A DNA stretch of 64,000 nt from Eledone cirrhosa (taxonomy: Eukaryota), in NCBI GenBank assembly GCA_964016885.1, contig OZ024743.1, positions 56,730,001 to 56,794,000 of the forward strand. The letters run 5' to 3'. Under the pieces are notes generated by a model that did not search any database, was not told the DNA's origin, and saw only the letters and a program-made list of their open reading frames with translations. Of the stretch, positions 14,601-37,518 are shown piece after piece (position 1 is the first letter of the stretch; every line of letters begins with the position of its first letter). A program made the translations under genes and the position numbers.

Positions 14601-15155
14601 TTCTCCAGCTGTGTATTTTATCATTACGCTAGCTCTAAATTAAGATAATTATAAGTTAAATGTAGTTATGTACATGCAGTTAATTGGTAGAGTCGTTAGA
14701 ATATTGGATAGAATGCTTTGCAATATTCTTTCTGGCTCTATGCACACTGTGTGGTCAATTTTGCCTTTCATCCTTTGAAGTTCGATAAAATAAGAAAAGC
14801 GCCAGTCTAGTACTGGGGCCTATTCTTTCTCTATATCACTTTCTCACTTTCTCCTTCTCTGGAAGAAATCGACTGTGTTACGACCTGGAAAGGGGACAAG
14901 TTCTGCCAGGTTTAACCTTTTAGTTACCAACCTTGCCAAAACCGGCTCTGGTTCTATGAAATAAAACCATCCATCTCAAAATTCTTCATTAATTAAAACA
15001 GAGCGCATTTTGTTAGAAATGCTGTCATGAAAGTCATGATGTGACCCCTGTGACTTCATAGGGAGTTACAGGTACATACATACATATAATTACGTTTATA
15101 ATTGAACTAAAATTTGTTTACTTACAGTATTCCTCTGCTGGAAATCTGTCTCACA

Positions 15156-15243
15156 ATGTTGACGTGTATTAAAACTGAAGAGCGAGGTTTGGGTATGGAT
15201 ACTCTATCAGAAGACTCTCTCTGTGTTGAAGAAATCATTTCAG
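15156..15243 (+). CDS. First coding exon of an uncharacterised ~169-aa protein (MLTCIKTEERGLGMDTLSEDSLCVEEIIS)
   Basis: Exon 15128-15243 has acceptor ttacttacag| and donor CAG|gtaaag; ATG at 15156; phase 1 joins 24609. Confidence 0.65.
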
Positions 15244-15264
15244 GTAAAGTTATTATTTCAATGT

Positions 15265-15497
15265 CTTATGTTTTTCGTTTCCCAACCATAACACTAACCC
15301 TAACTCTAACCCTTAATTATTTTAAATATTTTGACTTTCGTTTCCCAACCTTAACACTAATCCTAACTCTAACCCTTAATTCTTTTAAATGTTTTGACTT
15401 TCGTTTCCTCAACTTTAACTCTGACTCTTAACTCTTTTAAATATTTTATGACTTTTGTTTTCCAACCCTAACCCTAACCCTAACTCGAACCCTTAAA
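15265..15497. repeat. ~59-bp degenerate tandem repeat containing CCCTAA telomere-like motifs
   Basis: About four copies of ttttcgtttcccaacc...ctaaccctaactctaacccttaa. Confidence 0.75.
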
Positions 15498-18329
15498 TCT
15501 TATCATCCTGTAAAGATTTAGCAGAAAATATCTAAAAATCGATTTGTTAATTCAAATGTTTATAGTATCTTAAAAAGTGGACAGGTCATTGTGAAAATGT
15601 GTAGTATTAGAGTAAACACTTCAATTCTTAATGTGAGGCAGTCATAGAGCTGTTTTGTATTTTACAAGAATGTATGGGTAATAAAGTTTCATCCAGTACA
15701 GGATGTTAAGAGTTTTTTTCTGTCACCCAGTTAAACACAACTACCTACTCTTAGATGCTTTTAGTGGAGTCCACTTTCTTGCAAGGACCCTAGTTTCCAG
15801 TCTAGAGTAGATACACTGTATCCCTGTGTGTCATAAGAGGCAACCAAAAGGTATGTTGCCCCTGGGAGAGCAGCCAGCTGTAAAAAATAGCTTGAAAAAA
15901 AAAGAAAAAAAAAAGACTTCATGAGTACAAACTGTCACGAGACCTCCAAGGCTAACCCCTGCTAATGTCTGCTTTAGCAGGGGTTAGCCTTAACCTTTTG
16001 TTACCATATTTCTGATGACATTCACTGTCTGTTTCAATTAATTTGGAAAATATTAATATAGAAATATAACAAACTTTCTTAGTTTGGAATACAACTTAAC
16101 AAAGGTTCTTATATAAAATTATTATGAAAGGGTTTTAGATAAATATTAATTTTTTTAAAATAAAGTGTTTTGTATCACGGGACCAGGGGCAGTTTGGTGC
16201 CAGAAGGGCTAAAATGCTTATTGTTCTTTCTTTGTTACCATCATTTCCCACATTTAAATTATTTAAGATTTCATAATTAATTATATAAATAATGAAAAAA
16301 AGGTGGGGAAGGAGTAAAGAAGGGCAGATCTGGCTGTATAGGAAAGTAGAAAAAAGGACTATAAATGAAAAGAAAAAGAAGGAAAGAGCAAGGGTTATGA
16401 AATAGAAGAAAGATGGGGGGGGGGGGGGTGACAGGCTCTACATCTAGGTCAGGGCAGTGTTTCGGCTGTGCACCGTGGACAAAAGTGAACCCCACAAGGA
16501 TGAATAATAGCAAAGCTAACCTCGGCAAGATATGAACTTAGAATATAAAGGGCCATAACTCTATGAAACAGAGCTTGGTGTCCAACACTCTAACAATACT
16601 GCCAATCCACAACCATGTTCCAGTGTAATAATTGTTTCTACTCTTTGGCACAAGGCCAGCAATTATCCCAGTGCATCACTGGTACTTTATTTTATCGGGC
16701 CCATAAAGATGAAAGGCAAAAAACTAACCTTGGTAGGATTTGAACTGAGAACATAAAGGGCCATACCTCTATGCTGCAAAGCAGGGTGTCTGACGCTCTA
16801 CTGATTCTACCAATCCAAATGAGAAAGTTATATATTACTAAATCCCTTCATATTCTTGATTATTTAAAAAAACATTTTTTAAAAGTAATCAGTGTCTTTC
16901 CTTAGAAATATGGTAATGAAAATGTCATGGGGGAAGAGTCTTCAGACACTCCTTCCATCGGGTCCTGTCAGAAGCAACTATTTCCAACTGATCCGGACGG
17001 ATCCCCAAGCAGGACCAGCCAAGTTCATGGATGTTATCCAACCATCTTGTTCAGGGTCTACCCTAGGGTTCCATGCCGGTTGATTTTTGCCCATAAAAAA
17101 GAAGCCTACATAGTGCACTCTACATGTGAAGGTGTATATATTTATCTAAAAACCTTTCATCATAATTTTATATTATATGGTTTGTTATGCTCCAAACACC
17201 AGCTTAATAATGAGAAAGTTAGTAATATCACTAAATCCTTCAAGATTCTTGATTATTTGAAAATCATAGGCAATGTGTTTCTTTCAAAATATGCTAATGA
17301 ATGAGTTAATCTGCTAACCACAGGCACTTAGCCTAGCCATCATTGGTGAGGACAGGGAGCTGATATTACAGACTTCTTGTTATCTGTGCTAGGTTTAGAC
17401 CTTTTATCACTGTATTTCTAACAAAATAAAATCAATGTTAATTATTTAATGAAGAATTTTAAAAGATTTACTCAAATTGTTATTTCATTACTAAGAAAGT
17501 AACTTCATGTAAGGTTCTTATAAAAAGTTATGTTGGAAGATTTTAATATAAATTGGAAACCTTTAAAATGGGTGGTTTTATTTCATAGAACCAGAACTGG
17601 TTTTGGCTGGGTTGGTAACTAAAGGCTTAAGAGTAGACTAATTGAAATATGATTCTCAATGTTGTCTGTTGTCTTTATCTTGTAACATCTCTATCTTATC
17701 TTCCACTCTGACACACGATGTACCTCTCTGTGTAGCCTCTTCATCTTCATACAACTGATATCTTCCCTGCTATGCCTCCCCAGAACTTGGCTCTCCTGCT
17801 TTACAAGTATTTACACTAGAACCAATGTCACTGTGCACTGATTGATGCCATGATAAAAACACACCCAGCCTACTTGTAAAGTGGTAGTGCTGGTGCAACA
17901 ATAAAGTGCATCCAGCCCACTCAGTAATGTATTAATGTCACAATGAAATGTACCCAGTAGTAAAATGTTTGGTGTTAGGAAGGGTATCGAGCCATAGAAA
18001 ACATGCCAAACTGGAATGTAGGAGCAGAGCAGGATGGGGTCATCAGACTTGTCTAATCTTTGATGTGACAACCTGTCTGTCTTATGTCAGTGTGAAATAA
18101 TACATAAAATGGGGACAATGATGTTTATTATTCTTTTGTGGGAGGCAGGGTCCTTAATGAAATAAGTCCAGTCCACTCTGTGAAGTGGTTGGTATTAGAA
18201 AGGATATCCAGCTGTAAAAATAATAAAAAGAAACTATAAAGTAGTCTGGTTAATATGAAGCATTGTGAGATATGTAATAAATGACTGATAAGTATTTCAG
18301 AAAGCTGGTACAATGCTGTTTAGGTCATG

Positions 18330-21040
18330 GTCTATCTCTAGCCAGGAGGCTCATCTGGCTGGTGCTTATCCTGGTCTAAGTCTTAAGTCTATCTCTAGCC
18401 AGGAGGCTCATCTGGCTGGTGCTTATCCTGGTCTAAGTCTTAAGTCTGTCTCTAGCCAGGAGGCTCATCTGGCTGGTGCTTATCCTGGTCTCAGTCTTAA
18501 GTCTGTCTCTAGCCAGGAGGCTCATCTGGCTGGTGCTTATCCTGGTCTAAGTCTTAAGTCTGTCTCTAGCCAGGAGGCTCATCTGGCTAGTGCTTATCCT
18601 GGTCTAAGTCTTAAGTCTGTCTCTAGCCAGGAGGCTCATCTGGCTGGTGCTTATCCTGGTCTCAGTCTTAAGTCTGTCTCTAGCCAGGAGGCTCATCTGG
18701 CTGGTGCTTATCCTGGTCTAAGTCTTAAGTCTGTCTTTAGCCAGGAGGCTCATCTGGCTGGTGCTTATCCTGGTCTCAGTCTTAAGTCTGTCTCTAGCCA
18801 GGAGGCTCATCAGGCTGGTGCTTATCCTGGTCTCAGTCTTAAGTCTGTCTCTAGCCAGGAGGCTCATCTGGCTGGTGCTTATCCTGGTCTAAGTCTTAAG
18901 TCTGTCTCTAGCCAGGAGGCTCATCTGGCTAGTGCTTATCCTGGTCTAAGTCTTAAGTCTGTCTCTAGCCAGGAGGCTCATCTGGCTGGTGCTTATCCTG
19001 GTCTAAGTCTTAAGTCTGTCTCTAGCCAGGAGGCTCATCTGGCTGGTGCTTATCCTGGTCTAAGTCTTAAGTCTGTCTCTAGCCAGGAGGCTCATCTGGC
19101 TGGTGCTTATCCTGGTCTAAGTCATAAGTCTATCTCTAGCCAGGAGGCTCATCTGGCTGGTGCTTATCCTGGTCTAAGTCTTAAGTCTGTCTCTAGCCAG
19201 GAGGCTCATCTGGCTGGTGCTTATCCTGGTCTAAGTCTTAAGTCTGTCTCTAGCCAGGAGGCTCATCTGGCTAGTGCTTATCCTGGTCTCAGTCTTAAGT
19301 CTGTCTCTAGCCAGGAGGCTCATCTGGCTGGTGCTTATCCTGGTCTCAGTCTTAAGTCTGTCTCTAGCCAGGAGGCTCATCTGGCTGGTGCTTATCCTGG
19401 TCTCAGTCTTAAGTCTGTCTCTAGCCAGGAGGCTCATCTGGCTGGTGCTTATCCTGGTCTAAGTCTTAAGTCTGTCTCTAGCCAGGAGGCTCATCTGGCT
19501 AGTGCTTATCCTGGTCTAAGTCTTAAGTCTGTCTCTGGCCAGGAGGCTCATCTGGCTGGTGCTTATCCTGGTCTAAGTCTTAAGTCTGTCTCTAGCCAGG
19601 AGGCTCATCTGGCTGGTGCTTATCCTGGTCTAAGTCTTAAGTCTATCTCTAGCCAGGAGGCTCATCTGGCTGGTGCTTATCCTGGTCTAAGTCATAAGTC
19701 TATCTCTAGCCAGGAGGCTCATCTGGCTGGTGCTTATCCTGGTCTCAGTCTTAAGTCTATCTCTAGCCAGGAGGCTCATCTGGCTGGTGCTTATCCTGGT
19801 CTCAGTCTTAAGTCTGTCTCTAGCCAGGAGGCTCATCTGGCTGGTGCTTATCCTGGTCTAAGTCTTAAGTCTATCTCTAGCCAGGAGGCTCATCTGGCTG
19901 GTGCTTATCCTGGTCTCAGTCTTAAGTCTATCTCTAGCCAGGAGGCTCATCTGGCTGGTGCTTATCCTGGTCTCAGTCTTAAGTCTGTCTCTAGCCAGGA
20001 GGCTCATCTGGCTGGTGCTTATCCTGGTCTAAGTCTTAAGTCTGTCTCTAGCCAGGAGGCTCATCTGGCTGGTGCTTATCCTGGTCTAAGTCTTAAGTCT
20101 GTCTCTAGCCAGGAGGCTCATCTGGCTGGTGCTTATCCTGGTCTCAGTCTTAAGTCTGTCTCTAGCCAGGAGGCTCATCTGGCTGGTGCTTATCCTGGTC
20201 TCAGTCTTAAGTCTGTCTCTAGCCAGGAGGCTCATCTGGCTGGTGCTTATCCTGGTCTAAGTCTTAAGTCTATCTCTAGCCAGGAGGCTCATCTGGCTGG
20301 TGCTTATCCTGGTCTCAGTCTTAAGTCTATCTCTAGCCAGGAGGCTCATCTGGCTGGTGCTTATCCTGGTCTCAGTCTTAAGTCTATCTCTAGCCAGGAG
20401 GCTCATCTGGCTGGTGCTTATCCTGGTCTAAGTCTTAAGTCTGTCTCTAGCCAGGAGGCTCACCTGGCTGGTGCTTATCCTGGTCTAAGTCTTAAGTCTG
20501 TCTCTAGCCAGGAGGCTCATCTGGCTGGTGCTTATCCTGGTCTAAGTCTTAAGTCTGTCTCTAGCCAGGAGGCTCATCTGGCTAGTGCTTATCCTGGTCT
20601 AAGTCTTAAGTCTGTCTCTAGCCAGGAGGCTCATCTGGCTGGTGCTTATCCTGGTCTAAGTCTTAAGTCTGTCTCTAGCCAGGAGGCTCATCTGGCTGGT
20701 GCTTATCCTGGTCTAAGTCTTAAGTCTGTCTCTAGCCAGGAGGCTCATCTGGCTGGTGCTTATCCTGGTCTAAGTCATAAGTCTATCTCTAGCCAGGAGG
20801 CTCATCTGGCTGGTGCTTATCCTGGTCTCAGTCTTAAGTCTATCTCTAGCCAGGAGGCTCATCTGGCTGGTGCTTATCCTGGTCTAAGTCATAAGTCTGT
20901 CTCTAGCCAGGAGGCTCATCTGGCTGGTGCTTATCCTGGTCTAAGTCACAAGTCTGTCTCTAGCCAGGAGGCTCATCTGGCTGGTGCTTATCCTGGTCTA
21001 AGTCACAAGTCTGTCTCTAGCCAGGAGGCTCGTCTGGCAA
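18330..21040. repeat. 60-bp tandem satellite, ~45 copies, adjoining a SINE 3' end
   Basis: Unit gtctgtctctagccaggaggctcatctggctggtgcttatcctggtctaagtcttaa with few variants; intronic. Confidence 0.97.
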
Positions 21041-21075
21041 GTACAATGCAGTCTGGGTCTAAAGTATGTCTCTAG

Positions 21076-21302
21076 CTTATCCCGGTTTTGTGGCATGAAG
21101 CAACTGAGGGTACAAGACTTCTCCTGGACCAGATGCCAGTCCATCGCAGGTTTCAACTCTCAGCTATTGCTGGTACTCATTTTCAGCAGAGTATACTGGA
21201 GCAATGTGAAATGATGTCTTTCGATCAAGACCACATCACAACCCAGCCCATGATATTATGATTGTAAGTCCAACACCCTAACCACTAAGCCACACACCCT
21301 CA
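21076..21302 (-). mobile_element. tRNA-derived SINE (Nin-domain-like)
   Basis: Head gtggcttagtggttagggtgttggacttacaatc on the - strand; body gcttatcccgg...ccagtccatcgcagg; inverted relative at 22592-22790. Confidence 0.75.
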
Positions 21303-21638
21303 CACAATACAGTAAAAATATATAAAGGGCAAAGGATGACAAATAAAACAAAACAAAGTAGTTTTTTTATCCAGTATAATTCAACATAATATTTCAGTTA
21401 TACTCTATTTTCAAATGTAAAACAAAAATGGGACAAAACAAAACAAAAAATGAACGAGTGATGTGTTCTTAACTGGTCCAAGTGTCTGGATTATGGATGC
21501 ATGGGAGCAGCCATAGTAGCAATACTGCTCCATCTAGCTTTAATCTATTAATTGTGGCTTTTGTGCGTTGATGATTACAGCCCAAAAAAAATTTGCCTAA
21601 AATGAAATTCATCAGCAAGATATGGTTCTCCTGCACAT

Positions 21639-21932
21639 ATACTCTAGGGTCTCGAACAATGTCTCCCCCATCTCCCCACTCCTATAAAATGTTGCTAATC
21701 TATCTCTGGAGAAATTTTATTTTAAGTGGTAGCATTCCTGAGACAATTTTCTTTTGATATTAAAAAAAACATTACACATGACAAAAAAGAACATTGCTAG
21801 AAATCCCATACGTTATAAAATATTGGGGTCTTAATATGTAAACTAAACGGCTAATTCAGGTTTTAAAAAAAAACAAGGGAGACAACTTAGAAAAATTACC
21901 TCCCCCCCCCCTATTACTTGGGACTTGGTAGT
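21639..21932. mobile_element. ~290-bp TA-flanked MITE (family also at 22040-22312, 24946-25336, 40120-40555, 49327-49610)
   Basis: Termini tactct..ggtc / gacc..agagta and a shared core tgctaatctatctc...ggtagcattcctg. Confidence 0.7.
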
Positions 21933-23019
21933 AGGTGAGTAGTAACACTGAATAAAAACTGATTTTGAACATAACCCAGCTATCCTATGTCTGTATGGAA
22001 AGCAGACATATGATGTATATAAGTATTTACATTTATATAAATTGGTAATTTTTCTAGGTTGTCTTCATTGATATTTTTTTTAAAACCAGAATTAGTTGTT
22101 TAGTTTACATATTGAGACCCCAACCCATCCTATTTATTACATAATGTGTGGGATTTCAAGTAATGTACTTCTTTTGTAATGTGTAATGTTTTTTAATGTC
22201 TAAAGAAAATTAATTGTCGCAGGAATGCCACCAATTAAAATAAAATTTCTCCAGAGATAGAGTAGCAAAATTTAATGGGGAGGGAGGGGGAGGGGATCGA
22301 GACCCAAGAGTACTTACCCATCTCTAATCTTCCACACCCCAAAATCCAGTCACATGTAACCTAATACACAACTTTGCACTGACTCCATAAACGAAGACTT
22401 CAAAAATCCCTCACTGGGGTCAGGCCATCCTGGTCCTCTTCATCTTCAACAACAAAAACCAAACGGTCACTGCTCATGGCCTAGTGGTTAGAGTATTAGA
22501 TCATATGGGTGTGTGTTTGATTCCTAGATCCAGTGGCATATTATGTTCTTGAGCTAGGTGCTTTATTATTTCATGTTAAATTTCATCATAGTGGAGATGT
22601 GGCCTAGTGGTAAGGGTGTTGGACTTACAATCATAATTTTGTGAGTTCGATTCCTGGGCTGGGTTGTGTGTTGTGTTCTTGAGCAAAACACTTCATTTCA
22701 CGTTTCTCTAGTATACTCAGCTGAAAATGAGTACCAGCAATAGCTGGGGCTTTAACCCTGCGATGGACTTAATGCCACAAAACTAGGATTAGGGTCCCTA
22801 TCATTAAAGTATTTGAGAGTCCTATAGCAAAGAATCTCGTATGAGGCCAGCTAAATCTACATAGGTATGAGCTGTGACATCAACATGATAGGATTAGAGC
22901 CCTTATAATTAAAACAGTCAAGAAACATCCTATGAGATAACTCATAGAGGGCCAGCTAAACCTACATAGGTGTGAGGTGTGAATTTCATTTTATTTCAAT
23001 TTTTTGAAAATGTGACATT

Positions 23020-24565
23020 GGTTGTGGGATGGTAGTTGTAATGGTGGTGGTGGTAGTATTGATGGTAGTGGTGGTAGTGGTGGTGGTAGTATTGATGGTA
23101 GTGGTGGTAGTATTGATGGTAGTGGTGATAGTGGTGGTGGGATGGTAGTTGTAATGGTGGTGGTGGTAGTATTGATGGTAGTGATGGTAGTGGTGATAGT
23201 GGTGGTGGGATGGTAGTTGTAATGATGGTGGTGGTGGTAATGGTGGTGGTGGTGGTAGTATTGATGGTAGTGGTGGTGGGATGGTAGTTGTAATGGTGGT
23301 GGTGGTAGTATTGATGGTAGTGGTGACATTGGTGGTAGGATGGTAGTTGTAATGATGGTGGTGGTAGTATTGGTGGTAATGGTGGTGGTGGTAGTATTGA
23401 TGGTAGTGGTGACATTGGTGGTAGGATGGTAGTTGTAATGATGGTGGTGGTAGTATTGGTGGTAATGGTGGTGGTGGTAGTATTGATGGTAGTGGTGACA
23501 TTGGTGGTAGGATGGTAGTTGTAATGGTGGTGGTGGTAGTATTGGTGGTAATGGTGGTGGTGGTAGTATTGATGGTAGTGGTGACATTGGTGGTAGGATG
23601 GTAGTTGTAATGGTGGTGGTGGTAGTATTGGTGGTAATGGTGGTGGTGGTAGTATTGATGGTAGTGGTGACATTGGTGGTAGGATGGTAGTTGTAATGGT
23701 GGTGGTGGTAGTATTGGTGGTAATGGTGGTGGTGGTAGTATTGATGGTAGTGGTGACATTGGTGGTAGGATGGTAGTTGTAATGGTGGTGGTGGTGGTAG
23801 TATTGATGGTAGTGGTGACATTGGTGGTAGGATGGTAGTTGTAATGATGGTGGTGGTGGTAGTATTGATGGTAGTGGTGACATTGGTGGTAGGATGGTAG
23901 TTGTAATGGTGGTGGTGGTGGTAGTATTGATGGTAGTGGTGACATTGGTGGTAGGATGGTAGTTGTAATGGTGGTGGTGGTAGTATTGGTGGTAATGGTG
24001 GTGGTGGTAGTATTGATGGTAGTGGTGACATTGGTGGTAGGATGGTAGTTGTAATGGTGGTGGTGGTAGTATTGGTGGTAATGGTGGTGGTGGTAGTATT
24101 GATGGTAGTGGTGACATTGGTGGTAGGATGGTAGTTGTAATGGTGGTGGTGGTAGTATTGGTGGTAATGGTGGTGGTGGTAGTATTGATGGTAGTGGTGA
24201 CATTGGTGGTAGGATGGTAGTTGTAATGGTGGTGGTGGTAGTATTGGTGGTAATGGTGGTGGTGGTAGGATGGTAGTTGTAATGGTGGTGGTGGTAGTAT
24301 TGGTGGTAATGGTGGTGGTGGTAGTATTGATGGTAGTGGTGACATTGGTGGTAGGATGGTAGTTGTAATGGTGGTGGTGGTGGTAGTATTGATGGTAGTG
24401 GTGACATTGGTGGTAGGATGGTAGTTGTAATGATGGTGGTGGTAGTATTGGTGGTAATGGTGGTGGTGGTAGTATTGATGGTAGTGGTGACATTGGTGGT
24501 AGGATGGTAGTTGTAATGGTGGTGGTGGTGGTAGTATTGATGGTAGTGGTGACATTGGTGGTGGA
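23020..24565. repeat. GGT/AGT/GAT-rich minisatellite (~60-80 bp units)
   Basis: Repeated gtgacattggtggtaggatggtagttgtaatggtggt; open in all three - strand frames. Confidence 0.95.
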
Positions 24566-24608
24566 GAGAAATGTGCTCATTTTACATTTCGCTTTCCAAT
24601 TTTTTCAG

Positions 24609-24761
24609 AAAACTTGATCCATCAAATGAACAACAGCTCCCTGAATGAGACAGGGGTGAAACTTGAGCCCCAGAATGTCTCGTTTGGACAATTTAAATCC
24701 ATGAGGGATACAATGCATGAAGATGCAAAACTGTATTATCAGAGACTTAGAGAACTGGCAG
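24609..24761 (+). CDS. Internal exon of the uncharacterised small protein (ENLIHQMNNSSLNETGVKLEPQNVSFGQFKSMRDTMHEDAKLYYQRLRELA)
   Basis: Acceptor ttttttcag|; 153 nt open, phase 1-1; tandem donors G|gtcgta and C|gtaagt (24764), both in phase. Confidence 0.75.
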
Positions 24762-26319
24762 GTCGTAAGTAGAATCATCATCGTCATTGTTTAACGTACA
24801 TTTTCCATGCTAGCATGGGTTGTGTGTGTGTGTATATATGTATGTGTGTGTGTATGTGTATGTATATATATATATGTGTGTGTGTGTGTGTTTACTGTTT
24901 CTTTGTCACAAAATTTAGCAGTTCAATAACAAGAGATTGATAAAGTACTCTTGGGTCCCAAATAATAGGGTAGGGTGGGGGGTTTGGAATAAGGGGGTGG
25001 AGTGGAAAATCGGTAATTTTTTAAAGTTGTCTCCATGGATTAAAAAAAACAAAACAGAATTAGTTTAGTTTACATATTGAAACCCCCAACCCATCCTATT
25101 TATTGTATAACATATGGGATTTTTAGTAATGTGCTTTTGTGTTATGTCTAATGTTTTTTAATGTATAAAGAAAATTGTCGCAGGAATGCTACCAGTTGAA
25201 ATAAAGTTTTGCAGGGGATAGATTAGCAAAATTTAATAAGCAGGGTGTAGGAGTGGAATAAGAGCAGAGTGGGGGTGAAAAAACCTGAAAATTTGATAAG
25301 TGGGGGTGTGGGGCGATTATTCGACACCTGTGGGTATCAAATGTGAAAAACAAAGTGCTGGGGTCAATATGATCAGCTAAATCCATTCAAGTGGTGCCCC
25401 AGCATGGCCACAATCTAATGACTGAAACCATTAAAAGAATACCATCTTCACCCACTTGACAGGGTCGTGGGGACATAGACCTCAAACACTCTTTCCAACA
25501 GGTCCTGTCAGAAGCAACCTTCTCAAACTGAACCAGTTGGGTCCCCAAGGGAGACCAGTCAAGCTCATTGATGCTATCTAAGTTTCTTATTCTGGGTCTT
25601 CTGCAGGTTGATTTTTAACTGTAAAATCTGTCCAGCAATTCTTTCTTGACTTTCTAACCACACACCCGCAGTATCAGAGCTGTAATCTCTCAATTCGGAG
25701 AAGTAGTGGCACTACCTGAAGTGGCACTCTGATATCTCTGAGCTATGCACTCAATTGAGTAACATTACTCCAAAGACCCTTCCTAAGAACCCCATCTTTA
25801 CCTTTAGGCTCAAATCAACAACAAACATCTTAAGGTCATTTTTGCTGCTAAAGCTTCTTCAGTTTACTCTATTGTCAGCAACTCCTTTGTTTTCATTTCA
25901 ACCAACTTTAGCCATGCCTTTCTTGGTCTTCCCCTTCCCCTACTTTCTTCCACTTTTATTTCCATCACTCCTCTCACCCAGTCACTTTCACTCTTCCTCA
26001 ACACATGACCCAACTATCTCATTCTATTTCTCTTCAAAACATTCATCACTAGCTCTATTCCCTTCTCATAATTCCTCTCACCCAGTCATCTTTCCTCAGC
26101 ACATGGCCCAACCATCTCATTTCATTTCTCTTCACAATATATATCACTGGCTCTATTCTCATCTCTTAAACAATTACTTTCATCTTTCTTTAACACATGA
26201 TTCACTTCAATAACCTATATATAATAATCCATTGGTTTTCTGTTACTCTTTAAGAATGATTCGTTTTATGGACATATTGCAGTTTTTTTGTGTGCAAAAT
26301 TTGCTGGTAGAAGCAAGAT

Positions 26320-26630
26320 CACTATAGGTCTAGGAGCAGGGCTGCTCACATCATAGATCTGAGAGCAAGGCTATCCCCATCGTAGATTTATGCGTGGAGC
26401 TGCTCACATTATAGATTGAAGATTTACACTGCCTTCGTCACAGCATCATAGATCTTGAAGCAGGGCTGCCTTCATTATAGATCTCGTAGCAGGGCTGGCC
26501 CCATCAAAGCAGTATAGATCTAAGAGCTTGGTTACCCTCATTATAAATCTGTAAGACTATCCTGATCATAGCATCATAAATCTAAGAATAAGGCTACTTT
26601 CATCATAGATTTAAGAGCAGTGTTATCTTC
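26320..26630. repeat. Degenerate ~30-40 bp tandem repeat
   Basis: Recurrent catcatagatct..gagcagggctg. Confidence 0.7.
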
Positions 26631-27344
26631 ATCATTGCTTATTCTAAGACAATTTGAGTAGAATTGGGATTTGGCTGCTATTTCAAGCAAGTTGAGTGTT
26701 GTCTTTTATTACTATATTTCTAATATAGTAATAAAGACACTGCCTCTGGTTTTCAATTAAATTTGGAAATAATCAAGAATTTAGTAATATAACTAACTTT
26801 TATAAATGTTTTTTTGAGTTGATGTTTGGAACATAATTAACATAAAATTATAATAGAAAGTTTTTAGGTAAATATAAGCATTTTAAAACAAACAGCTTTA
26901 TATTGTAGAACCCAGTTTTGGTATCAAAAGTGTTAAGGTGTGAAGAGAAATAAATTATTTTTTGTTAAAGTTTTAAAAATTAAAAAAAAAATTTGCTGAC
27001 CTTGTTCCTGTAGTAGAAACCATTATTATTTTTATTTTTCTATTTTGGGGGCAAATTCTTGAGATTTTATTTTAAAATGTAGATAATTTCATGTCTAAAA
27101 AAAAAAAACCTACTCCATTGCCCCCCCCCCCCCCCCCCCCCCCTTCCATTTTAGCATTAATCTAATTAAATTGATTTGATAAAAATAAATTAATTTAACC
27201 TTCTTTGACATCATTTAAATTTCTTTTCCTTCTCCCATCTTCAGTTTTGTGAGTTCTCTTCCTCAATTCCTTTTGTCCCTCCTTTCCTCTTCCACACACT
27301 CCACCTCCATCAACACAGATAATGAGATTTAGTTTGTTAAATCA

Positions 27345-27988
27345 AAGTGTGATGTATGTATGTGTATATATATATATGTGTGTGTGTGTGTGTGCATGTA
27401 TGTGTGTGTGTGTGTAAATATATAGATGTATGTGTTTATATATACATGTATGTGTGTGTGTGTATGTATGTATATGTTTATATATATAGATGTATATGTA
27501 TGTATATGTGTGTATATATATAGATGTATATGTATGTATATATATATGTATATGTATGTATATATATATGTGTATGTATGTATATATATATGTATATGTA
27601 TGTATATATATATGTATGTGTATGTATATATATATGTATGTATATATATATATGTATGTATATATGTATGTATATATATATGTATGTATGTATATATATA
27701 TGTATGTATATGTATATATATGTATATATATATAGATGTATATGTATGTATGTATATAGATGTATGTATGTGTGTATATAAACAGATGTATATGTATGTA
27801 TATGTTTATACATATATATATATATATATTTTGTGTGTGTGTGTATATATATATATATACACACAAAATATATATATATATGTATAAACACATACATACA
27901 TATACATCTGTTTATGTACACACATACATACATACATATACATCTATATATATATACACACATACATAAAATGTGTATGAAAACTTGT

Positions 27989-28027
<39 letters not shown>

Positions 28028-28050
28028 CACATACACATACACATATATAT
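27345..28050. repeat. Complex (TA/TG/CA) microsatellite with a strand-polarity flip
   Basis: TATG-rich left half and CATA-rich right half, palindromic around ~27848. Confidence 0.9.
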
Positions 28051-28629
28051 TTATAGCAGTGTCTGGTGGCAGAGCAAGGGAAATGAGTACAATATAGAGA
28101 GACCAGTAAGAGAGAGACACAACACACACACAGACAGACAAAAAGAGGTTGGCTGGCTGGCTGCTTTGCTTCAGTGGCTGTGTGTCTGTCTGTGTCTCTG
28201 CTGCAGTTCAACTAGAGTCCAAATCATGTGAACTTTTGACACTGTCTTCAATACTACTGAGAAAGAAAGAAAAAAAAAAGGGAAGAAGAAAGGAGAGGGG
28301 AAAAAAGGTTTTAGAATTTTTAGTTGACCTATTGACCTTGTCTGAAAAAAATATACCCCCACCACCACCCTGTCTGTTCCCATACAAACCTTTTTTTTAA
28401 AAACTTATTTTGTCATTTTTGTTTATTCTTTATTTTAAAGAGAAAAATAATTTTTGGTGAACATTTTTCTCTCCTCTCCCCCTCTCTCTCCCCCCCCTTA
28501 CTCTCCCTCCCTCCCCATTCCTCCTCCCTCATTCTCTCTAAGAAGAAGAATAATGAGGGAGAAAGGGATATTCTATTTAATTAGACAGCAAAATTAAGTA
28601 AAATAACCATGATGCTGGTACTGGTACAA

Positions 28630-29338
28630 CCACTACTACCACCACCAACACCACTGTCTTATCTCTCAGTCTCACTAACCATCACTACTACCACCACCAC
28701 TGTCTTATCCCTCAGTCTCACTAACCATCACTAGTACTACCACCACCACTGTCTTATCCCTCAGTCTCACTAACCATCACTAGTACTACCACCACCAACA
28801 CCACTGTCTTATCCCTCAGTCTCACTAACCATCACTACTACCACCACCACTGTCTTATCTCTCAGTCTCACTAACCATCACTACTACCACCACCACTGTC
28901 TTATCCCTCAGTCTCACTAACCATCACTAGTACCACCACTACTACCACCACCAACACCACTGTCTTATCCATCATCTCACTAACCATCACCACCACCACC
29001 ACTGTCTTATCTCTGTCTCACTAACCATCACTACTACTACCACCACCACTGTCTTATACCTCAGTCTCACAAACCATCACTACTACTACCACCACCACCA
29101 CCAGTCTTATACCTCAGTCTCACAAACCATCACTACTACTACCACCACCACCACTGTCTTATACCTCAGTCTCACTAACCATCACTAGTACCACCACTAC
29201 CACCACCACCACCACTGTCTTATCCCTCAGTCTCACTAACCATCACTACTACCACCACCACTGTCTTATCCCCAGTCTCACTAATCATCACTACTACCAC
29301 CACCACCACTGTCTTATCCCTCAGCCTCACTAACCATC

Positions 29339-29373
<35 letters not shown>

Positions 29374-29385
29374 CACCAACACCAC
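28630..29385. repeat. ~42-50 bp minisatellite
   Basis: Unit ccaccactgtcttatccctcagtctcactaaccatcactacta. Confidence 0.9.
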
Positions 29386-29688
29386 CATCATGGCATCTTT
29401 CTCACTAGCCATTACAAACAAAACCACCTCCACCACCACCACCACCACTACTGTTTCATCCCCAGCTTCACTAATCTTTTGTTGGATTAGTTGAGAATTT
29501 AAGCTGTTTATAAACCTGTCTGCTGCTTCCATCTGAATTCCACAAACCCTTTTGTTATGGCCAATGTTAGGACAAGGGTTAACAAGGCTCTTGTAAATAA
29601 AGGACATTTTGTAGTGTGGAGAAAACTAACCCCTCACCCCTCTCTCTCTCAGCAATTTGAACATTTTCCATAAATACCTGTGGCAAAT

Positions 29689-29776
29689 ATGGCAAGACTG
29701 ACTGATGGCCATGGCGTGGGAACTTGTAGTTGTATAGCTTCTCATTGTGGTCTTGTGGACACTGCATGGACAAATG
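29689..29776 (+). CDS. Candidate alternative first coding exon (MARLTDGHGVGTCSCIASHCGLVDTAWTN)
   Basis: ATG preceded by an in-frame stop; donor G|gttaag in phase 1, in frame with 31839. Confidence 0.35.
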
Positions 29777-30317
29777 GTTAAGTAACTTGCTTTACAATCA
29801 TCAGGTTCCAGGTTCGATCCCACTATATGCATACATACCTGTAGTAAATATGTATCACTGGTTCTTTTCGACCCTGTAAAGATGAAAAGCAAAGCCAACT
29901 TTGGTGGGATTGGAACTCAGAGCATAAAGAACCACAAAGCATGTCTGATGCTCTATCGATACTGCCAATGTTTTTTAATGTATAAAGAAAATTTGTCACA
30001 GGAATGCTACCATTTAAAATAAAATTTCACCGGAGATAGATTAACAAAATTGAACGCTTTTTTAGGGGGCTGCGGTGTATGTGGAAAAATATGTGAAAAA
30101 TTAATTTGAAACTCGAGAGTAGTAATTTTTAACTTGAGCATCATAATTAACAAGAGCTAGCTTTTCAAGCCTTAATAATTCTATAGTCTCAAACAGCATT
30201 TTTTAATGATTGTTCCTATAGTTGTGTATATAGATATTTCATAAATATACAAATGGCTGACTAAATACGTTTTTTCTCAAGTTTTTTTTCCTATTAACTC
30301 CTCTTCTCACTTTCTAT

Positions 30318-30635
30318 TTAGTGGTTAGAGCATTGACGTCACAATTGTAAGGTTATGAGTTCAATTACCGGACTGGGTTGTGTGTTGTGTTCTTGAACAA
30401 AGCACTTTACTTCATGTTGCTCCAGTTCACTCAGCTGTAGAAATGAATTGCAACGTCACTTGTGCCAGCTGTATCGCCATTGCCTTTCCCTTGGCTGACA
30501 TCATTGACATGGAGAAGGGAGGCTGGTATGCATGGGCGACTGCTGGTCTTCCACAAACACACCTTGCCCAGGCTTGTGCCTCAGAGAGGAACTTTCTAGG
30601 CGCAAAACCATGGTCATTCACGACAGAAGGGGGTC
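30318..30635 (+). mobile_element. tRNA-derived SINE (second subfamily)
   Basis: Same head as 10441 but a different 3' half; homologous to 33570-33887. Confidence 0.8.
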
Positions 30636-31838
30636 TACATATACATATATATAACTGTCATTTAACATCCATTTTAAGAGTACTAGATACATTTTATCAT
30701 AGCATGCCCTAGAAAAGTTGTCATGTCCTTGATACAACTGAAGAATCTCTTCAATCCTTGTTTCTATGGTTGGATCACCTTCCTAACACCATTCACTTTA
30801 CAGAGTGTACAGGGAGCATTTTCTTGTTACAGCAACACTAAGAGTATTAAATCTTTGATACCCCTCTTGATCCTTTGTTTTGTAATAATTTCTCATTAGT
30901 GACAGGAAAGCTCTTGTTTTAATATCATATTATAGAAGGTCTAGGATCCTCAAGTACAATCAGTTGCTATAGGATGGCCCATAAAATAGGGTAAAGACCC
31001 TTAGAGATGGAAAAAGAAGTTGCCAGCAGCCATTGGAAGGGATTAAACCTCGTATCATCATCATCATCATCATTGCTTTTATGTCTGTTTTCAGCACAGC
31101 ATCTCTCCATGTTCCTTCATCTCTTCTGTGAGTCTCAGCTATATGAGGTCAGCTGTCACCAACTCTGCCTAGGTCTCCCTTAGTCTATCTCTACTACGGC
31201 TTCCTTCCACTGGGATTTCCTGGTACTTCTTCACCCAGTGACCATCATCATCATCACCGTTTTACGTCCGTTCTTCCACGCTAGCATGGGTTAGACGGGT
31301 TGTCCTGTTGTGGGCAGTGTCCGGTCGACTGACTTTGTCATGCTCATACGGGAACTGATTCTGGCTTGATTTCTACAGCTGGATGCCCTTCCTAACACCA
31401 ACCTCATTTACAGTGAGTGCTGGGTGCTTTTTTTCTGTGGCGCCTACACATCCACTTTACAGTGTGGGCTGGGTGCTTTTTTGCCGTGGCACCTCCACGA
31501 CCACTTTGGGAGGGTATGGGGGCATATTGTCTATATGCTTCAGCTTCGGCTTGTACTCGTGGGGGGTTGGGCCTTCTGTATTACTGCGTGACGCCAGAGG
31601 TCACTGTCGTGTGTCATCATCGCCTTTGAGAGGTGTAATTGGATAAGGTCGGCTTTTATCATCTCATCCCAGGTCTTCTTGGGTCTCCCCACTCCGTGGT
31701 TTCCATCGACTTCTACCATAAGCTATTTCATAGTAACTGACTGCACTTAAATTTATTTTCTGCACTTCAGTATCCTACATCTTCTATAAATTTATTCCCT
31801 GAGTGTTTTTAAGTTCCATGTTTGTTTGTTGTTTGCAG

Positions 31839-32035
31839 CTCGTGAAGCAAATGTATGCAAAGCCGACACAGTGTTTCGTTCAATGTTGTTGGAGGAGTCT
31901 TTGTTACCAGAATCTGAAACTAGTAATAACAGCAACAACAACAACAACACCAACAACAACAACAACAATAATAATAATAGTACAGACCACCACAACAACT
32001 ACAAACCATCCACAATACTACGATTAGGACCAGCA
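31839..32035 (+). CDS. Internal exon of the uncharacterised small protein (AREANVCKADTVFRSMLLEESLLPESETS-polyN-STDHHNNYKPSTILRLGPA)
   Basis: Acceptor tgttgtttgcag| and donor GCA|gtaagt; 197 nt, phase 1-0. Confidence 0.75.
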
Positions 32036-33569
32036 GTAAGTATTTCTTCTCCCACCAGGTTTACTCAACTCTTTCATTTCATGGCAGTATTTCTAATGAA
32101 ATGACACTGTATTTGAATTACATCGTCATTGCCATCATCATCATCACCATCACCGCCATCATCATTGCCATCATCCATCTACTTTCTATGTTGTCAAAGT
32201 TGGATAGGTTGTCAACAGCCTAAGACTAGACTGGTCGAGGAACCAGGTGTTGCTTACATACATTCCATACACGGTTTGGTTTTTATAGTTGGATGCCCTT
32301 CCGAATGCCAACCACGTTACTGAGTGTACTAGGTGCATGGTATTAAATTATTTAATTTATCAGAATTATATCAAATTATGTTGGAAGATTTTAATTTAAT
32401 TAGGAACCCTTTAAAATGTGTGATTTTGTTTCATCTGTTTTTGATGGGTTGGTATCGGTAGGGTAAACCTTATAGTAATGTGAGGTAAATATATCAACCT
32501 TGATAATGTTGCCAAAAATGGTACACGGCTTTGATATCATAGCCCTAAAACACTACACCATCACTAGCAAAGCTTGGACAGCTCATCACAGACTAGTCAT
32601 TACTCAAATGGAGCTATTGGGGCCTGCAGCTTGCTTACTTACATTCCCACACTTTATCGATTGCTCTGACTGGCTGGTGTGGGGATGGGGGGACTTGCCT
32701 GTCACTTGCACTCTACTGAGTGCATTTTATCATGTCACCAGCACTAGAGAGATAGTCATGTCTTTTGCTCAGCTGAAGAGTCCTCCCAACCTTTTTATGG
32801 CTGGTTTTCTATGGCTGGATGTCACCATCCTATCACTGATCACTTTACAGAGTGTACTGGGTGCATTTATCTTAGGTTTACTAACTTTCAGTTACTATGG
32901 CTAGATGTCCATGCTGTCACCAACCATTTTATAGAGTTTATTGGGTGCGTTTATTGGGTAGATCACTCACATTACACTACCAATATATCCTAAAAATGTA
33001 ACATTGTTCTTGATAGGTTAGTGACCTCCAAATGAACCTGTGTTATGAATCATATCTTAGGTTTACTAACTTTCTATTAGTTGCAGTGTGTGATGCCATT
33101 GGCAAGTTTGTTTTCACTCTTAAGTGATACTTATTTTTGTTATTTGAGTCATACTGTTTTTCATAATTATCCTATGTGTTTTTTTGCTAAGCTGTCATGA
33201 GTTGGACAGGTAGTCACAGCCTAAGTTAGTACTTAACTGGAGCTACTGTCCTCCCAGATGAACCAAAGAACATATCACACTTACATATGTTCTGGTATGG
33301 TTTCTACAGCTGGATGTCCTTTGTATTGTAACAAGAAACTACAAGGGTTGGCACTAGGAAGTGTATCTAGCTATAAAATATTGCGTCAAGAAAGAAAGGA
33401 CCCCCCCACACACACACACACACACCACCATGATGGGTATAAAGCTTGTCACAGTAGATAGCTTTAAACCTTTTGTAATGTATTTCAGATAAGTGAGGAA
33501 TCATTTTCAGGTATTTACTAAAATTTATTACTCATTTCATTATTTAACATATGGTTCTTTTATAAAATG

Positions 33570-34255
33570 AAGGCACATGGCTTAGTGGTTAGAGCGTCAG
33601 GCTTACAATCCTGAAGTTGTGACTTCAATTCCTGGTCTGAGTGGTGTGTTGTGATCTTGAGCAAGACACTTTATTTCACGTTGTTCCAGTTTACTCAGCT
33701 GTAGAAATGGGTTGCAACGTCACTGGTGATAAGCTGTATTGGCCATAGCCTTTCCCTTGGACATTATTGGTGGCATGGAGAGGGGAAACTGGTATGCATG
33801 GGTGATTACTGGTCTTCCACAAACACCCGTGCCTGGTTTATGCCTCAGAGAACTTTCTAGGTGCAAATCCCATAGTCATTCATGCCTATATGGAGGCACA
33901 TGGCTTAGTGGTTAGAGCATTGGCCTTGCAATCGAAAGGTTGTGAGTTCAATTCTCAGACCAGGTGATGTGTTGTTTCCTTGAGCAAGACACTTTATTTC
34001 ACATTGCTCCAGTTTACTCAGCTGTAGAAATAAGATGATAGGGACTGGGGTCCCTATCATTCCACTGCAAAGTGGTCGTGCAGGTGCCACGGCAAAAAAC
34101 TACCCAGCACTCACTGTAAATGAGGTTGGTGTTAGGAAGGGCATCCAGCTGTAGAAATCAAGCCAAAATCAGTTCCCGTCTCGACTCTTGCAAGCAGGGA
34201 AAAGTGGACGTAAAATGAAATGATGATGATGATGATGATGACTGAAGGGGTCTTT
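33570..34255 (+). mobile_element. Nested SINEs: a young copy (33891-34240) inserted in the 3' end of another SINE
   Basis: Host sequence gtcattcatg...actgaagggg is split by the inserted copy (compare intact 30613-30635). Confidence 0.75.
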
Positions 34256-34892
34256 ACCTTTGTTGAAAGATTTTAATTTAAGTAGGAATACTTTAAAATG
34301 GGTGGTATTATTTCATAGAACCAAATATACTCTATTCAAATTTTGAGGCATTTACTAAAATCCTTATTTAATTGCTAAGATTGTAACTTAACATATGGTT
34401 CTTATATAAAATTATGTTTATTTAAATGGGAACCCTTTAAAATGTATGATTTTGTTTCATAGAACCAGAACTGGTTTTGGTTGGGTCAGTATAAAAAAGG
34501 GCTTAAAATGTTTGTGATATAGAATCATCACCATCACTGTTTAACGTCCATTTTTCCATGCTAGCATAGGTTAGACAAATTGTCCTTTTGTGAGCAATGC
34601 CAGGTCAGGTGACCATGTCTTGCTCATACAGAACTGATTCTGGCCTGGTTTCTACAGCTGGATACCCTTCCTAACCAACCTCATTTACAGTATGTACTGG
34701 GTGCTTTTTGTTGTGAAAATATACGACCACTTTACAGTGTGGGCTGGGTGCTTTTTTGTCGTGACACCTACACGAGACCACTTTACAGTGTGGGCTGGGT
34801 GCTTTTTTTTGTTGTGACACCTACACGACCACTTTACAGTGTGAGCTGGATGCTTTTTGTTAATATTAATATATTTTTTATTTTTATTTCAG

Positions 34893-34964
34893 CCACCTGT
34901 TTATATACGTCCGATACCAAACAAAACCAGTTTGCTGGAAATATATCTGTCTAGTGATTTATAG
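34893..34964 (+). CDS. Last coding exon of the uncharacterised small protein (PPVYIRPIPNKTSLLEIYLSSDL*)
   Basis: Acceptor tttttatttcag|, phase 0, TAG at 34962-34964, followed by AT-rich UTR-like sequence. Confidence 0.7.
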   Translation, partial: PPVYIRPIPNKTSLLEIYLSSDL

Positions 34965-37518
34965 TGACACTGAAATAATGTCACAATTTACAATCAAAAT
35001 CCAACAAATACCATCAAATCTCATTAACTCGATTGATATAAACTCCCCCTCCCACAAAACCCCAAAATCAAACAACATACTCTCTTTATTTGGAATATTT
35101 CCTTCAATCATTTTCATAATGTAACAAAATCAAATTATTTTAATGACTATATTTATTTACAACTGTGAAAAATGTTGTCTAGAATGAATTTTCTTAAGAG
35201 TAATTAGAAAATTAATTTTAGCACTAAAGGAAACAAGTCTCTGTAAATTGTCTTTAGTGTTGCAGTGGCTGGACTTTTGAATCACAGGTACAACTCCTTT
35301 ATTTTTCAGCTGAGTGAACTGGAGCTCAGTGAGTGGACTTTGTCTTGCTGAAAGATACAACATTGCCATAAAGAATTAAACTCATGACCTTATGATCACG
35401 TCTATCTCCCTATATATATATACACACACACACATACACGTACTATGTTAAGGTATCAAGACATATAATATGTATGGTGAAAAAATACTGTTTCTCAAAC
35501 GATATATGGCTCTTTCTCTCTATACACACACACAAAACGGGTTTCTACAGAGTTTCTTCTCTACACCAAATTTCACTCACAAGCCATGCCACACAATGAG
35601 ACTGAACTCGAAATCCACATGGTTGTGAAGCGAACTCCTTAACCATACAGCCATGCTTTTCTTTTTTACTTTTAGTTTTATAAATTGCATTATTTTCATA
35701 TGAAGGTTTCAACAGTGCTGATAGTGTTACATTCTCATCATGATGTAAAAAACTCATTTCGAAAATCGCATTATATCATTCCCTTAATTAATGAAGAATT
35801 TATAAGCTTACCTCACCCCTCATCTCTAAATATTTTTATAGAAAGTAGATTTACATAATCTAAGTTTCTAGAAAATACTTTCAAATTAAACAAGTTAACC
35901 TTTCTGTTAGCGTATTTCAATAGAAATATGTTATCTACAATTTCCAAATAATTTTGAAAATAGTCAAGAATTTGGATGGATTTGATTCTATAGCTGACTT
36001 TCTCATTAACTTGGTGTTTGGATTATGACGGAAGGTTTTTGATAAACAAACATCCTAGAATCATAGAACCAGCAGTGGTTTGTAATTAAAATGGTTATTG
36101 TTGACTACCTTAACTCTTTCATTACCATATCTCTAATGACACTATGATTTTCAAAAAGAATTTCAAGAGATTTAGTAATCTAACAAACTTTTTCATTATC
36201 AAACTAGTGTTTATAGCATGAGAAAGTTTTTAACATAAAATTATGATGAAGGGTTATTTTTCTTCTTTTTTTTTTTAGATAAATATAAACACTTTAAAAT
36301 AAAGTTTTGAATCATAGAACTAGGGGCTGTTTCAGACGGCTTGGTATCAAAAAGGTTAAAAGGTATTTCACATTCTGTTCATGTGTATACAAATACATAC
36401 ACATATATAGCTTCTATTCATAGCTGTTTATATTTTTATACTTTATCACCAAATTGTATATTACAAGACTTAGCTGATTAAATTAGAATTTATTTTTTTA
36501 TAAATGTCTATATATGTAGTGGAATGTTTTGTCACAAATACACATTTCTATGAAGATTTACAAAATATATTATTAACCCTTTTGTATGATGAAATAAATG
36601 ATAAATATAAAGTGGTTTAAGAGTTTTGATGTGGTTTTGGAATAGCTTAACTCTTTAACATTTACATTACTCTATATATACTATTGTATTTTCCTGGTAA
36701 CGGCTTTATCTCACATAATATTGAAGCTATGAGATTTTGATATTTATTTTGAGAACAATACCTTAACATCAGTATGAGTAGCCAGTTACAGCTGGTTTGA
36801 ACAGAAAGAGGTGAGAGAATTCTGGCCAGATATGGCCAGTTTCAATGCTAATGGGTTAAATGACTCTACCACAGTGTAATTGCTTTATTTTCTATACACT
36901 GTATAGATCAAGTCATTTGCTGGACAAACGCAACTAGAAAATTGATAATCAGCTTCTTTATATTTATCATTTATTTGTTGATATTAAAATTTGTGGAACT
37001 GTCATTGACCAGGTCACAAACAGTGTGACAAATTTTGACACGAAAATAAATCAATGTAAAGTGAAGTTAAGTCTTGTGTGTGTGTTTTTGAATGGTTAAA
37101 ATGAATCTTCAATGATGTAATTTCTAATTTTAGATTTTGTTTATTTAAATTAAAGAAACTTTTCCTTCTTTTAATATGTGGTGACTAATGTCTCATTAAA
37201 CAAACAGCTACATATTTAAAGTTCTGTATATTTTTCTCATTGCCAAACATGACTAGATTTTATACTATATCAAATGTAGTAATATATATATATTATCTTT
37301 GTTGTATGACTGAGAATGTTATGAATTTGCCTTCTGGAAATGTTGTGAAAAAGCTTTAAAAATAAATAAGAATTACAAATTTGTTTTTTGTTAATTATTT
37401 GAATTTATTGTATATAAAATATTGAACTCTTTTTACTTGTTAATAGAAAATTGACGTTAAATGATGATGATGGTAATATACACACACACACACACACACA
37501 CACATACGTGTGTGTGTA

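What the first reader, a model, noticed from the sequence alone, without database searches (positions are those of the whole stretch)
15156..34964. Unannotated ~169-aa protein with a possible basic-region-less HLH, two SUMO sites and poly-Asn
Four exons with canonical splice sites and matching phases (88+153+197+72 = 510 nt) splice into a protein I do not recognise. It carries IKTE and VKLE SUMO consensus motifs. The segment AKLYYQRLRELA-(GP/A)REAN-VCKADTVFRSMLLEESLL loosely follows helix1-loop-helix2 (LxEL...KAD) without a basic region, as in Id/emc-type inhibitors. The C-terminus SLLEIYL resembles a short cofactor-binding helix. It may be a lineage-specific transcriptional modulator; the HLH assignment is inference only.
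Basis: partly seen in the sequence, partly recalled or inferred. Interest (0 to 1): 0.75.

Follow-up and report, generated by a model that had tools for sequence, protein, structure and literature searches.

The report
Octopod-only small protein, not an HLH
This is a real four-exon gene whose small protein is already listed as "uncharacterized" in other octopuses and was found only in that group; it fails sequence tests for the proposed helix-loop-helix inhibitor family and likely works as a small intracellular adaptor that docks onto partner proteins.

Summary
The gene is real. All four exons, phases and GT-AG sites check out. It is the single-copy orthologue of uncharacterized LOC106884462 (O. 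bimaculoides, 121 of 152 identical), LOC115209773 (O. sinensis/vulgaris) and an Argonauta protein. So it is unnamed, not unannotated. Orthologues match the second exon-2 donor (24764; 170 aa).

The Id/emc-type HLH reading is not supported:
- No Pfam HLH match.
- A helix-2 core position that is I/L/M in 40 of 40 HLHs is Glu/Asp here.
- The genome has a true Id elsewhere.

Poly-Asn is a private AAC/AAT expansion, and only one of the two SUMO motifs (IKTE) is kept in Argonauta. HMMER over 1.84 billion representatives found no credible relative outside octopods. Best reading: an octopod-restricted, constrained, partly disordered adaptor with a predicted helical hairpin and a conserved C-terminal tail. 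Function is untested; modest interest.

The parts
15128..15155 (+). Probable 5' UTR part of coding exon 1 (AG at 15126-15127 implies an upstream exon that was not located)
   Evidence: Sequence. The N-terminal extensions of P0004 and P0005 differ from each other and have no good match in the window. Inference.
15156..15243 (+). Coding exon 1 (aa 1-30), with the IKTE SUMO consensus at 15168-15179, kept in all 4 aligned taxa
24609..24764 (+). Coding exon 2, tandem donors at 24761 and 24764 (orthologues match 24764); VKLE at 24656-24667 (not in Argonauta); first half of the predicted helical core
31839..32035 (+). Coding exon 3: second predicted helix (31847-31900; aa 82-106 have 22 of 25 positions invariant), poly-Asn linker, start of the conserved tail
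31922..31987 (+). AAC/AAT microsatellite encoding the poly-Asn; an 18-aa insertion relative to the O. bimaculoides and O. vulgaris proteins
34893..34964 (+). Coding exon 4 with stop: PPVY (34893-34904) and SLLEIYL (34929-34949, predicted short helix); aa 137-170 have 26 of 34 positions invariant
34965..36300 (+). Probable 3' UTR of about 1.3 kb (AATAAA at 36298)
   Evidence: Run X1 contigs cover 34893-35400 and 35448-36250; poly(A) hexamers. The run's kind is not on record, so this is inference.

Best explanation
This is a single-copy, four-exon gene for a 170-residue acidic protein conserved across octopods, which likely works as a small intracellular adaptor, using a predicted helical hairpin and a conserved C-terminal tail to dock onto partner proteins rather than binding DNA or E-proteins. 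Shown: gene structure, orthology, single copy, uneven conservation, no signal peptide or membrane segment by hydropathy, failure of HLH sequence tests. Predicted: helices at about aa 51-80 and 85-102, a short helix at SLLEIYL, and disorder elsewhere. Inferred: the two most conserved blocks (aa 82-106 and 137-170) are binding surfaces; K6 in IKTE would be SUMOylated, which would point to a nuclear role; poly-Asn is a tolerated linker expansion without function.
For: Orthologues in O. bimaculoides, O. sinensis/vulgaris and Argonauta hians at 121/152, 121/152 and 98/149 identity. One locus in the own genome by protein and DNA search. The other 95 of 96 exon-3 hits are weak (E 0.003 or worse); the four best, the only ones translated, are poly-Asn repeats. 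Invariant positions across 4 taxa: 48 of 59 in aa 82-106 plus 137-170, against 35 of 81 in aa 1-81 (Fisher p 5e-6; blocks chosen after viewing the alignment); the linker has 1 of 30. Highest 19-residue hydropathy 0.52, pI 4.6-5.9. Two AlphaFold2 models agree on helices over the core and at SLLEIYL. One contig of run X1 lies with letters 85-322 from exactly 34893, while X2 and X3 contigs run across that border from 34832. X1's depth of 0.83 in the exon-3 bin equals what that contig's first 84 letters would give on the end of exon 3, so an exon 3-4 splice is inferred.
Against: No partner, localisation or expression data were obtained; 'adaptor' rests on anatomy alone. The models are low-confidence (mean pLDDT 59.9 and 46.4) and disagree on topology: three short helices versus one long helix plus one. 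One psi-K-x-E motif arises in 13-16% of shuffles, and no NLS-like basic cluster was found. PPVY (PPxY) and the terminal S-D-L are both altered in Argonauta. The exon 3-4 joint was not among the 15 joints displayed (1850 not shown), and it rests on one contig of depth under 5 from a run of unrecorded kind.
Confidence: 0.5

Rival explanations
1. A highly diverged or convergent Id/emc-like HLH decoy that sequesters E-proteins.
For: Helix 1 keeps the Tyr, Leu and Leu that align with ID2 Y43, L46 and L49, and a Lys falls at the helix-2 Lys. The Argonauta model shows long helix, loop, helix. There is no basic region.
Against: Threading score -1.0 (280 of 500 shuffles equal or higher) against 5.1-61.3 for 40 true HLHs left out in turn, including 33.3 for the true Id. 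Local HMM -1.1/-1.3 bits against 15.5-83.1. HHalign probability 0.45%. No Pfam HLH match, and none of 64 PF00010 hits in the genome lies in the window. The column of ID2 I72, a dimer-core residue in PMC3484135, is I/L/M in 40 of 40 HLHs but Glu here and Asp in Argonauta; the preceding Tyr column is Leu; helix 2 scores -4.2. The genome has a separate true Id (G000:C13:40394725; E 8e-13 to ID2).
Confidence: 0.07
2. A fast-evolving member of an old family (for example a subunit of a conserved complex or a germline protein) whose relatives outside octopods are beyond detection, rather than a lineage-born gene.
For: Four exons with long introns and strongly constrained blocks suggest age. The profile was built from only 3 sequences (Neff 1.2), so its reach is limited. 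Short, partly disordered proteins commonly escape homology detection (general knowledge).
Against: HMMER over 1.84 billion representatives gave 7 hits at E up to 0.001: five are this gene or pieces of it and two are repeat-summed chance hits. PDB sequence searches gave best E 0.91 and 0.33. Within octopods the core is slow-evolving (22 of 25 invariant), which should help detection.
Confidence: 0.3
3. A domesticated fragment of a retrotransposon Gag or capsid protein.
For: ESM Atlas neighbours include clusters with Retrotrans_gag (12% of members) and Caulimovir_coat_dom (53%) at scores 0.83-0.89.
Against: All scores are under 0.9 with only 50-84 of 256 features shared; a third of shuffled proteins reach 0.8. 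No Pfam hit. The core is split by an intron and the gene is single-copy.
Confidence: 0.05
4. A WW-domain and PDZ-binding scaffold acting through the tail (PPxY at aa 148-151, class I PDZ-type end).
For: PPVY is present in the window and both Octopus sequences and arises in 1-2% of shuffles. Motif definitions are recalled, not from a call.
Against: Argonauta has His for Tyr and two extra terminal residues, while keeping the rest of the tail. The motifs were spotted after the fact.
Confidence: 0.08

Closest known systems
Uncharacterized LOC106884462 (O. bimaculoides XP_014791350.1); LOC115209773 (O. sinensis XP_029634147.1, O. vulgaris CAI9719269.1); Argonauta hians GAB1600328.1
   Same: Orthologue: collinear over all four exons, 121/152, 121/152 and 98/149 identical, same start and, in Octopus, same end.
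   Different: The window protein carries an 18-aa poly-Asn insertion. No function is given for any of them; searches for the two LOC ids found 0 papers each.
Id1-4 / Drosophila extramacrochaetae (HLH proteins without a basic region)
   Same: Small size, no basic region, two predicted helices with a short loop, and a Tyr-x-x-Leu-x-x-Leu run in helix 1.
   Different: Fails Pfam, HMM, threading and profile-profile tests; charged residue at a dimer-core position; the true Id orthologue lies on another chromosome.
Cephalopod taxonomically restricted (orphan) genes
   Same: No homologue detected outside the clade. PMC9023564 (passages seen) counts 48 of 2290 genes in cephalopod microsyntenies as orphans, so the class is known.
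   Different: This one was found only in octopods, not all cephalopods, subject to database coverage; its origin is untested.

Membership tests
Id/emc HLH inhibitors | HLH domain recognised by PF00010 | tested here: not met
   0 families for P0001, P0004 and P0005 and no HLH for the exon pieces; 0 of 64 genome hits in the window; control Id L038 E 1.4e-9
Id/emc HLH inhibitors | Scores above chance on an HLH profile without the basic region | tested here: not met
   -1.0 bit, 280 of 500 shuffles equal or higher; 40 true HLHs 5.1-61.3; HHalign probability 0.45%
Id/emc HLH inhibitors | Hydrophobic dimer core (ID2 M39, L46, L49, M62, I69, I72, L75; PMC3484135, passages seen) | tested here: not met
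   Threaded residues are A69, L76, L79, A90, M97, E100, L103: 4 of 7 large hydrophobic, 2 Ala, 1 charged. The I72 column is I/L/M in 40 of 40 HLHs
Id/emc HLH inhibitors | No basic DNA-binding region | tested here: met
   No basic cluster before helix 1; true of most proteins, so not diagnostic
Id/emc HLH inhibitors | HLH fold (parallel four-helix dimer) | tested here: inconclusive
   Monomer models are low-confidence and disagree; fold searches give only generic helical matches with Z at most 7.0 and 5.4
Id/emc HLH inhibitors | Sequesters E-proteins and blocks E-box binding | not testable with these tools
   Needs co-immunoprecipitation and gel shift
LOC106884462/LOC115209773 orthogroup | Full-length collinear similarity and single copy | tested here: met
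LOC106884462/LOC115209773 orthogroup | Shared intron positions | tested here: met
   Unspliced read-through ORFs P0008, P0002 and P0006 (unnamed contigs) leave the spliced protein at the same borders and still align into the window's intron flanks; P0009 diverges right after exon 1
Taxonomically restricted gene | No detectable homologue outside the clade | tested here: met
   coverage of squid and cuttlefish proteins in these libraries was not checked
Taxonomically restricted gene | De novo origin shown by non-coding syntenic DNA in an outgroup | not testable with these tools
   No other cephalopod genome is held
Domesticated Gag/capsid proteins | Gag profile or capsid fold match | tested here: inconclusive
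   Atlas leads under 0.9; no Pfam hit; low-confidence model
SUMO substrates | Conserved psi-K-x-E motif in a disordered region | tested here: met
   IKTE in 4 of 4 taxa, in a region with pLDDT under 50; VKLE in 3 of 4. Modification itself is untested.

The most novel reading that the evidence does not exclude
Octopods invented a second, unrelated or unrecognisably diverged Id-like decoy: a SUMO-regulated helix-loop-helix mimic that titrates bHLH factors alongside the canonical Id gene, giving a lineage-specific control point in neural or muscle differentiation.
Probability: 0.06. Interest if true: 0.7.

Novelty: new member of a known kind. Interest (0 to 1): 0.25.

Why it matters
As it stands it is one more uncharacterised, clade-restricted cephalopod gene, already in databases. 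Its value is as a clean candidate: single copy, conserved from Octopus to Argonauta, with two sharply constrained blocks that can serve as bait. If it proved to be born in octopods and to have captured a conserved partner, it would be a usable case of a new gene entering an old pathway. If it were an Id mimic it would be surprising, but the sequence tests argue against that.

Tried and rejected
Family and structure searches
- Pfam on exon pieces and orthologues: nothing but two E over 2 hits on the poly-Asn.
- PDB by sequence: best E 0.91 and 0.33.
- Foldseek against PDB and viral libraries: 0 matches at E up to 0.001.
- VIA-align over 48,161 chains: generic TPR-like or hairpin matches, best Z 7.0 (rmsd 2.7, 57 aligned) and 5.4 (rmsd 2.9, 58 aligned); no bHLH entry recognised by title among the 50 rows shown for either model, which does not exclude the fold.
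- Complex prediction of the core (aa 55-106 of P0001) with this genome's E-protein HLH: no answer, score 0.02 against a mark of 0.34, alignments not used, controls not folded; no evidence either way.
- Pairwise alignment to the genome's own Id: 93-941 of 1000 shuffles score as high.
- PF03732 in the own genome rang nowhere, controls included: uninformative.

Chance hits set aside
- P0007 (repeat and STAND-type protein, 8 stretches) and P0010 (FMRFamide-related repeat precursor, 8 stretches) were rejected as repeat-summed hits. A neuropeptide reading was rejected because there is no signal peptide by hydropathy.
- P0009 appears to be a gene model that joins exon 1 to an endonuclease-like ORF.

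RNA evidence
- No RNA holder was listed.
- No contig of X1, X2 or X4 was laid on exon 2, so junctions 1-2 and 2-3 and the donor choice could not be read.
- dN/dS could not be run because no orthologous DNA was available.

Literature and earlier findings
- 0 papers for LOC106884462, for LOC115209773, for octopus + bHLH + extramacrochaetae, and for octopus + ICA69. Supplementary tables are not covered by these searches and may list the gene.
- Earlier findings: none by sequence or nearby; the eight shown by words concern other genes.
Full report
Observation. Exons 15156-15243, 24609-24761, 31839-32035 and 34893-34964 join to 510 nt and 169 aa without an internal stop; a second donor three bases on (24764) gives 170 aa. 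Donors are CAG|GTAAAG, CAG|GTCGTA or GTC|GTAAGT, and GCA|GTAAGT; the three acceptors have 15, 13 and 15 pyrimidines of 18.

Identity. Exon 2 alone found a 152-aa O. bimaculoides protein, XP_014791350.1 (LOC106884462), at E 1e-17. Its cluster holds O. sinensis XP_029634147.1 and O. vulgaris CAI9719269.1, plus a 193-aa O. vulgaris model. A full-length search added Argonauta hians GAB1600328.1; 4 of 19 candidates passed. TBLASTN of these proteins hits the four exons in order. The window protein is 121/152 identical to each Octopus sequence and 98/149 to Argonauta. All match the 170-aa form. Three unnamed read-through ORFs (P0008, P0002, P0006) leave the spliced protein at the same exon borders, so intron positions are shared. 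The gene is single-copy in G000; of the 95 weaker exon-3 hits, the four translated are Asn repeats. Whether the database models rest on RNA was not checked.

Splicing evidence. One 322-letter contig of run X1 lies from exactly 34893 with its letters 85-322, whereas X2 and X3 contigs cross that border from 34832. X1's mean depth in the exon-3 bin (0.83) equals what 49 unmasked bases at that contig's depth of 3.95 give (0.827). I infer an exon 3-4 splice. The joint was not in the rows shown, the run's kind is not on record, and it is one contig from one study.

Anatomy. Invariant positions across the four taxa: aa 1-30, 13 of 30; aa 31-54, 5 of 24; aa 55-81, 17 of 27; aa 82-106, 22 of 25; aa 107-136, 1 of 30; aa 137-170, 26 of 34. 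The poly-Asn is an AAC/AAT microsatellite in the least conserved linker and is missing in all orthologues. IKTE is in 4 of 4 taxa and VKLE in 3 of 4; one such motif arises in 13-16% of shuffles, two in about 1%. There is no hydrophobic segment and the pI is 4.6-5.9. AlphaFold2 gives helices 51-64, 66-80, 85-102 and 143-148 for P0001 (mean pLDDT 59.9), and one long helix, a loop, a second helix and the terminal helix for Argonauta (46.4). Both models are weak and their packing differs. PPVY and the terminal S-D-L resemble WW- and PDZ-binding motifs (definitions recalled), but Argonauta alters both.

HLH test. PF00010 found 64 matches in the genome, none in the window. I took 40 of the 64 for a profile: 29 of the top 30 and 11 of 13 further loci fetched; the three dropped were half-domains cut by introns. 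One of the 40, L038 on C13, is the true Id/emc (E 8e-13 to ID2). With local HMM scoring the window core gets -1.1 and -1.3 bits, and 381 and 360 of 500 shuffles do as well; left-out HLHs get 15.5-83.1. Helix 1 is mildly positive (+3.2) and helix 2 negative (-4.2). Of the seven ID2 core residues named in PMC3484135 (passages seen), the I72 column is I/L/M in 40 of 40 HLHs but Glu here and Asp in Argonauta. HHalign against 27 of these HLHs gives probability 0.45%. The controls were chosen by Pfam and so favour typical HLHs; a wholly convergent mimic is not excluded.

Range. HMMER with the 3-sequence profile over 1.84 billion representatives returned 7 hits at E up to 0.001. Five are this gene or its exons, and two are repeat proteins matched in 8 stretches each. 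A search of longer proteins returned only the exon-1 chimera P0009, 1 of 7994 candidates scored. ESM Atlas gave only leads under 0.9, some towards Gag or capsid clusters. The family therefore looks octopod-restricted, with two caveats: the profile is shallow, and squid and cuttlefish coverage of the libraries was not checked.

Mechanism. The pattern is a disordered acidic N-terminus with one conserved SUMO consensus, a constrained helical core of about 50 residues, a free linker and a constrained 34-residue tail. It fits best a small intracellular adaptor with two binding surfaces (inference, 0.5). Rivals: an old family beyond detection (0.3, partly compatible with the adaptor reading), a WW/PDZ scaffold (0.08), an Id mimic (0.07) and a Gag relic (0.05).

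Context. The downstream neighbour is ICA69 on the - strand, converging about 9 kb from the stop (Pfam E 3e-19 and 2e-16). No link between the genes is implied.

Literature. Searches for each LOC id found 0 papers; supplementary tables are outside these searches and could list the gene. Papers seen: PMC3484135, PMC9023564, PMC12682272 and PMC9635652 (passages only; the last two gave no usable divergence date); the others only as search listings.

Verdict. This is an orthologue of a database-listed uncharacterised octopod gene. Interest 0.25.

Noticed in passing
window 46888-46364 and 44180-44076, - strand: Last exons of an ICA69/ICA1 gene (Pfam ICA69 E 3.2e-19 and 2.4e-16), converging on the gene studied.
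   Followed up: partly
G000:C13:40394725-40394841 (L038): The genome's true Id/extramacrochaetae orthologue (E 8e-13 to ID2).
   Followed up: yes
G000:C2:148896918-148897052 and 148899578-148899712 (L030, L037): Two tandem E-protein-type HLH exons 2.5 kb apart, 65% identical; possibly mutually exclusive exons as in vertebrate E12/E47 (comparison recalled), or a tandem duplication.
   Followed up: no
window 18330-21038: 57-bp minisatellite, 47.5 copies at 97% identity, in intron 1; the unit resembles part of a dispersed repeat found at many loci, and a more diverged related array lies at C4:178.295-178.297 Mb.
   Followed up: partly
window 24761-24764: Tandem donors three bases apart (Ala versus Gly-Pro at the helix-loop junction); a read-through ORF from another contig keeps the same residues after the exon, consistent with both donors being retained.
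   Followed up: partly
window 56445-58163, + strand: Broken LINE-like element with a reverse transcriptase domain (RVT_1 E 2.1e-15), lying antisense to ICA69, probably within an intron.
   Followed up: partly
window 39706-39930, + strand: Short ORF resembling a Tc1/mariner transposase C-terminus (recalled resemblance; no Pfam hit at E 0.01).
   Followed up: no
P0009 (UniRef100_A0A0L8I2S3): An O. bimaculoides model that joins this gene's first exon to an endonuclease-like ORF; probably a gene-prediction chimera.
   Followed up: partly
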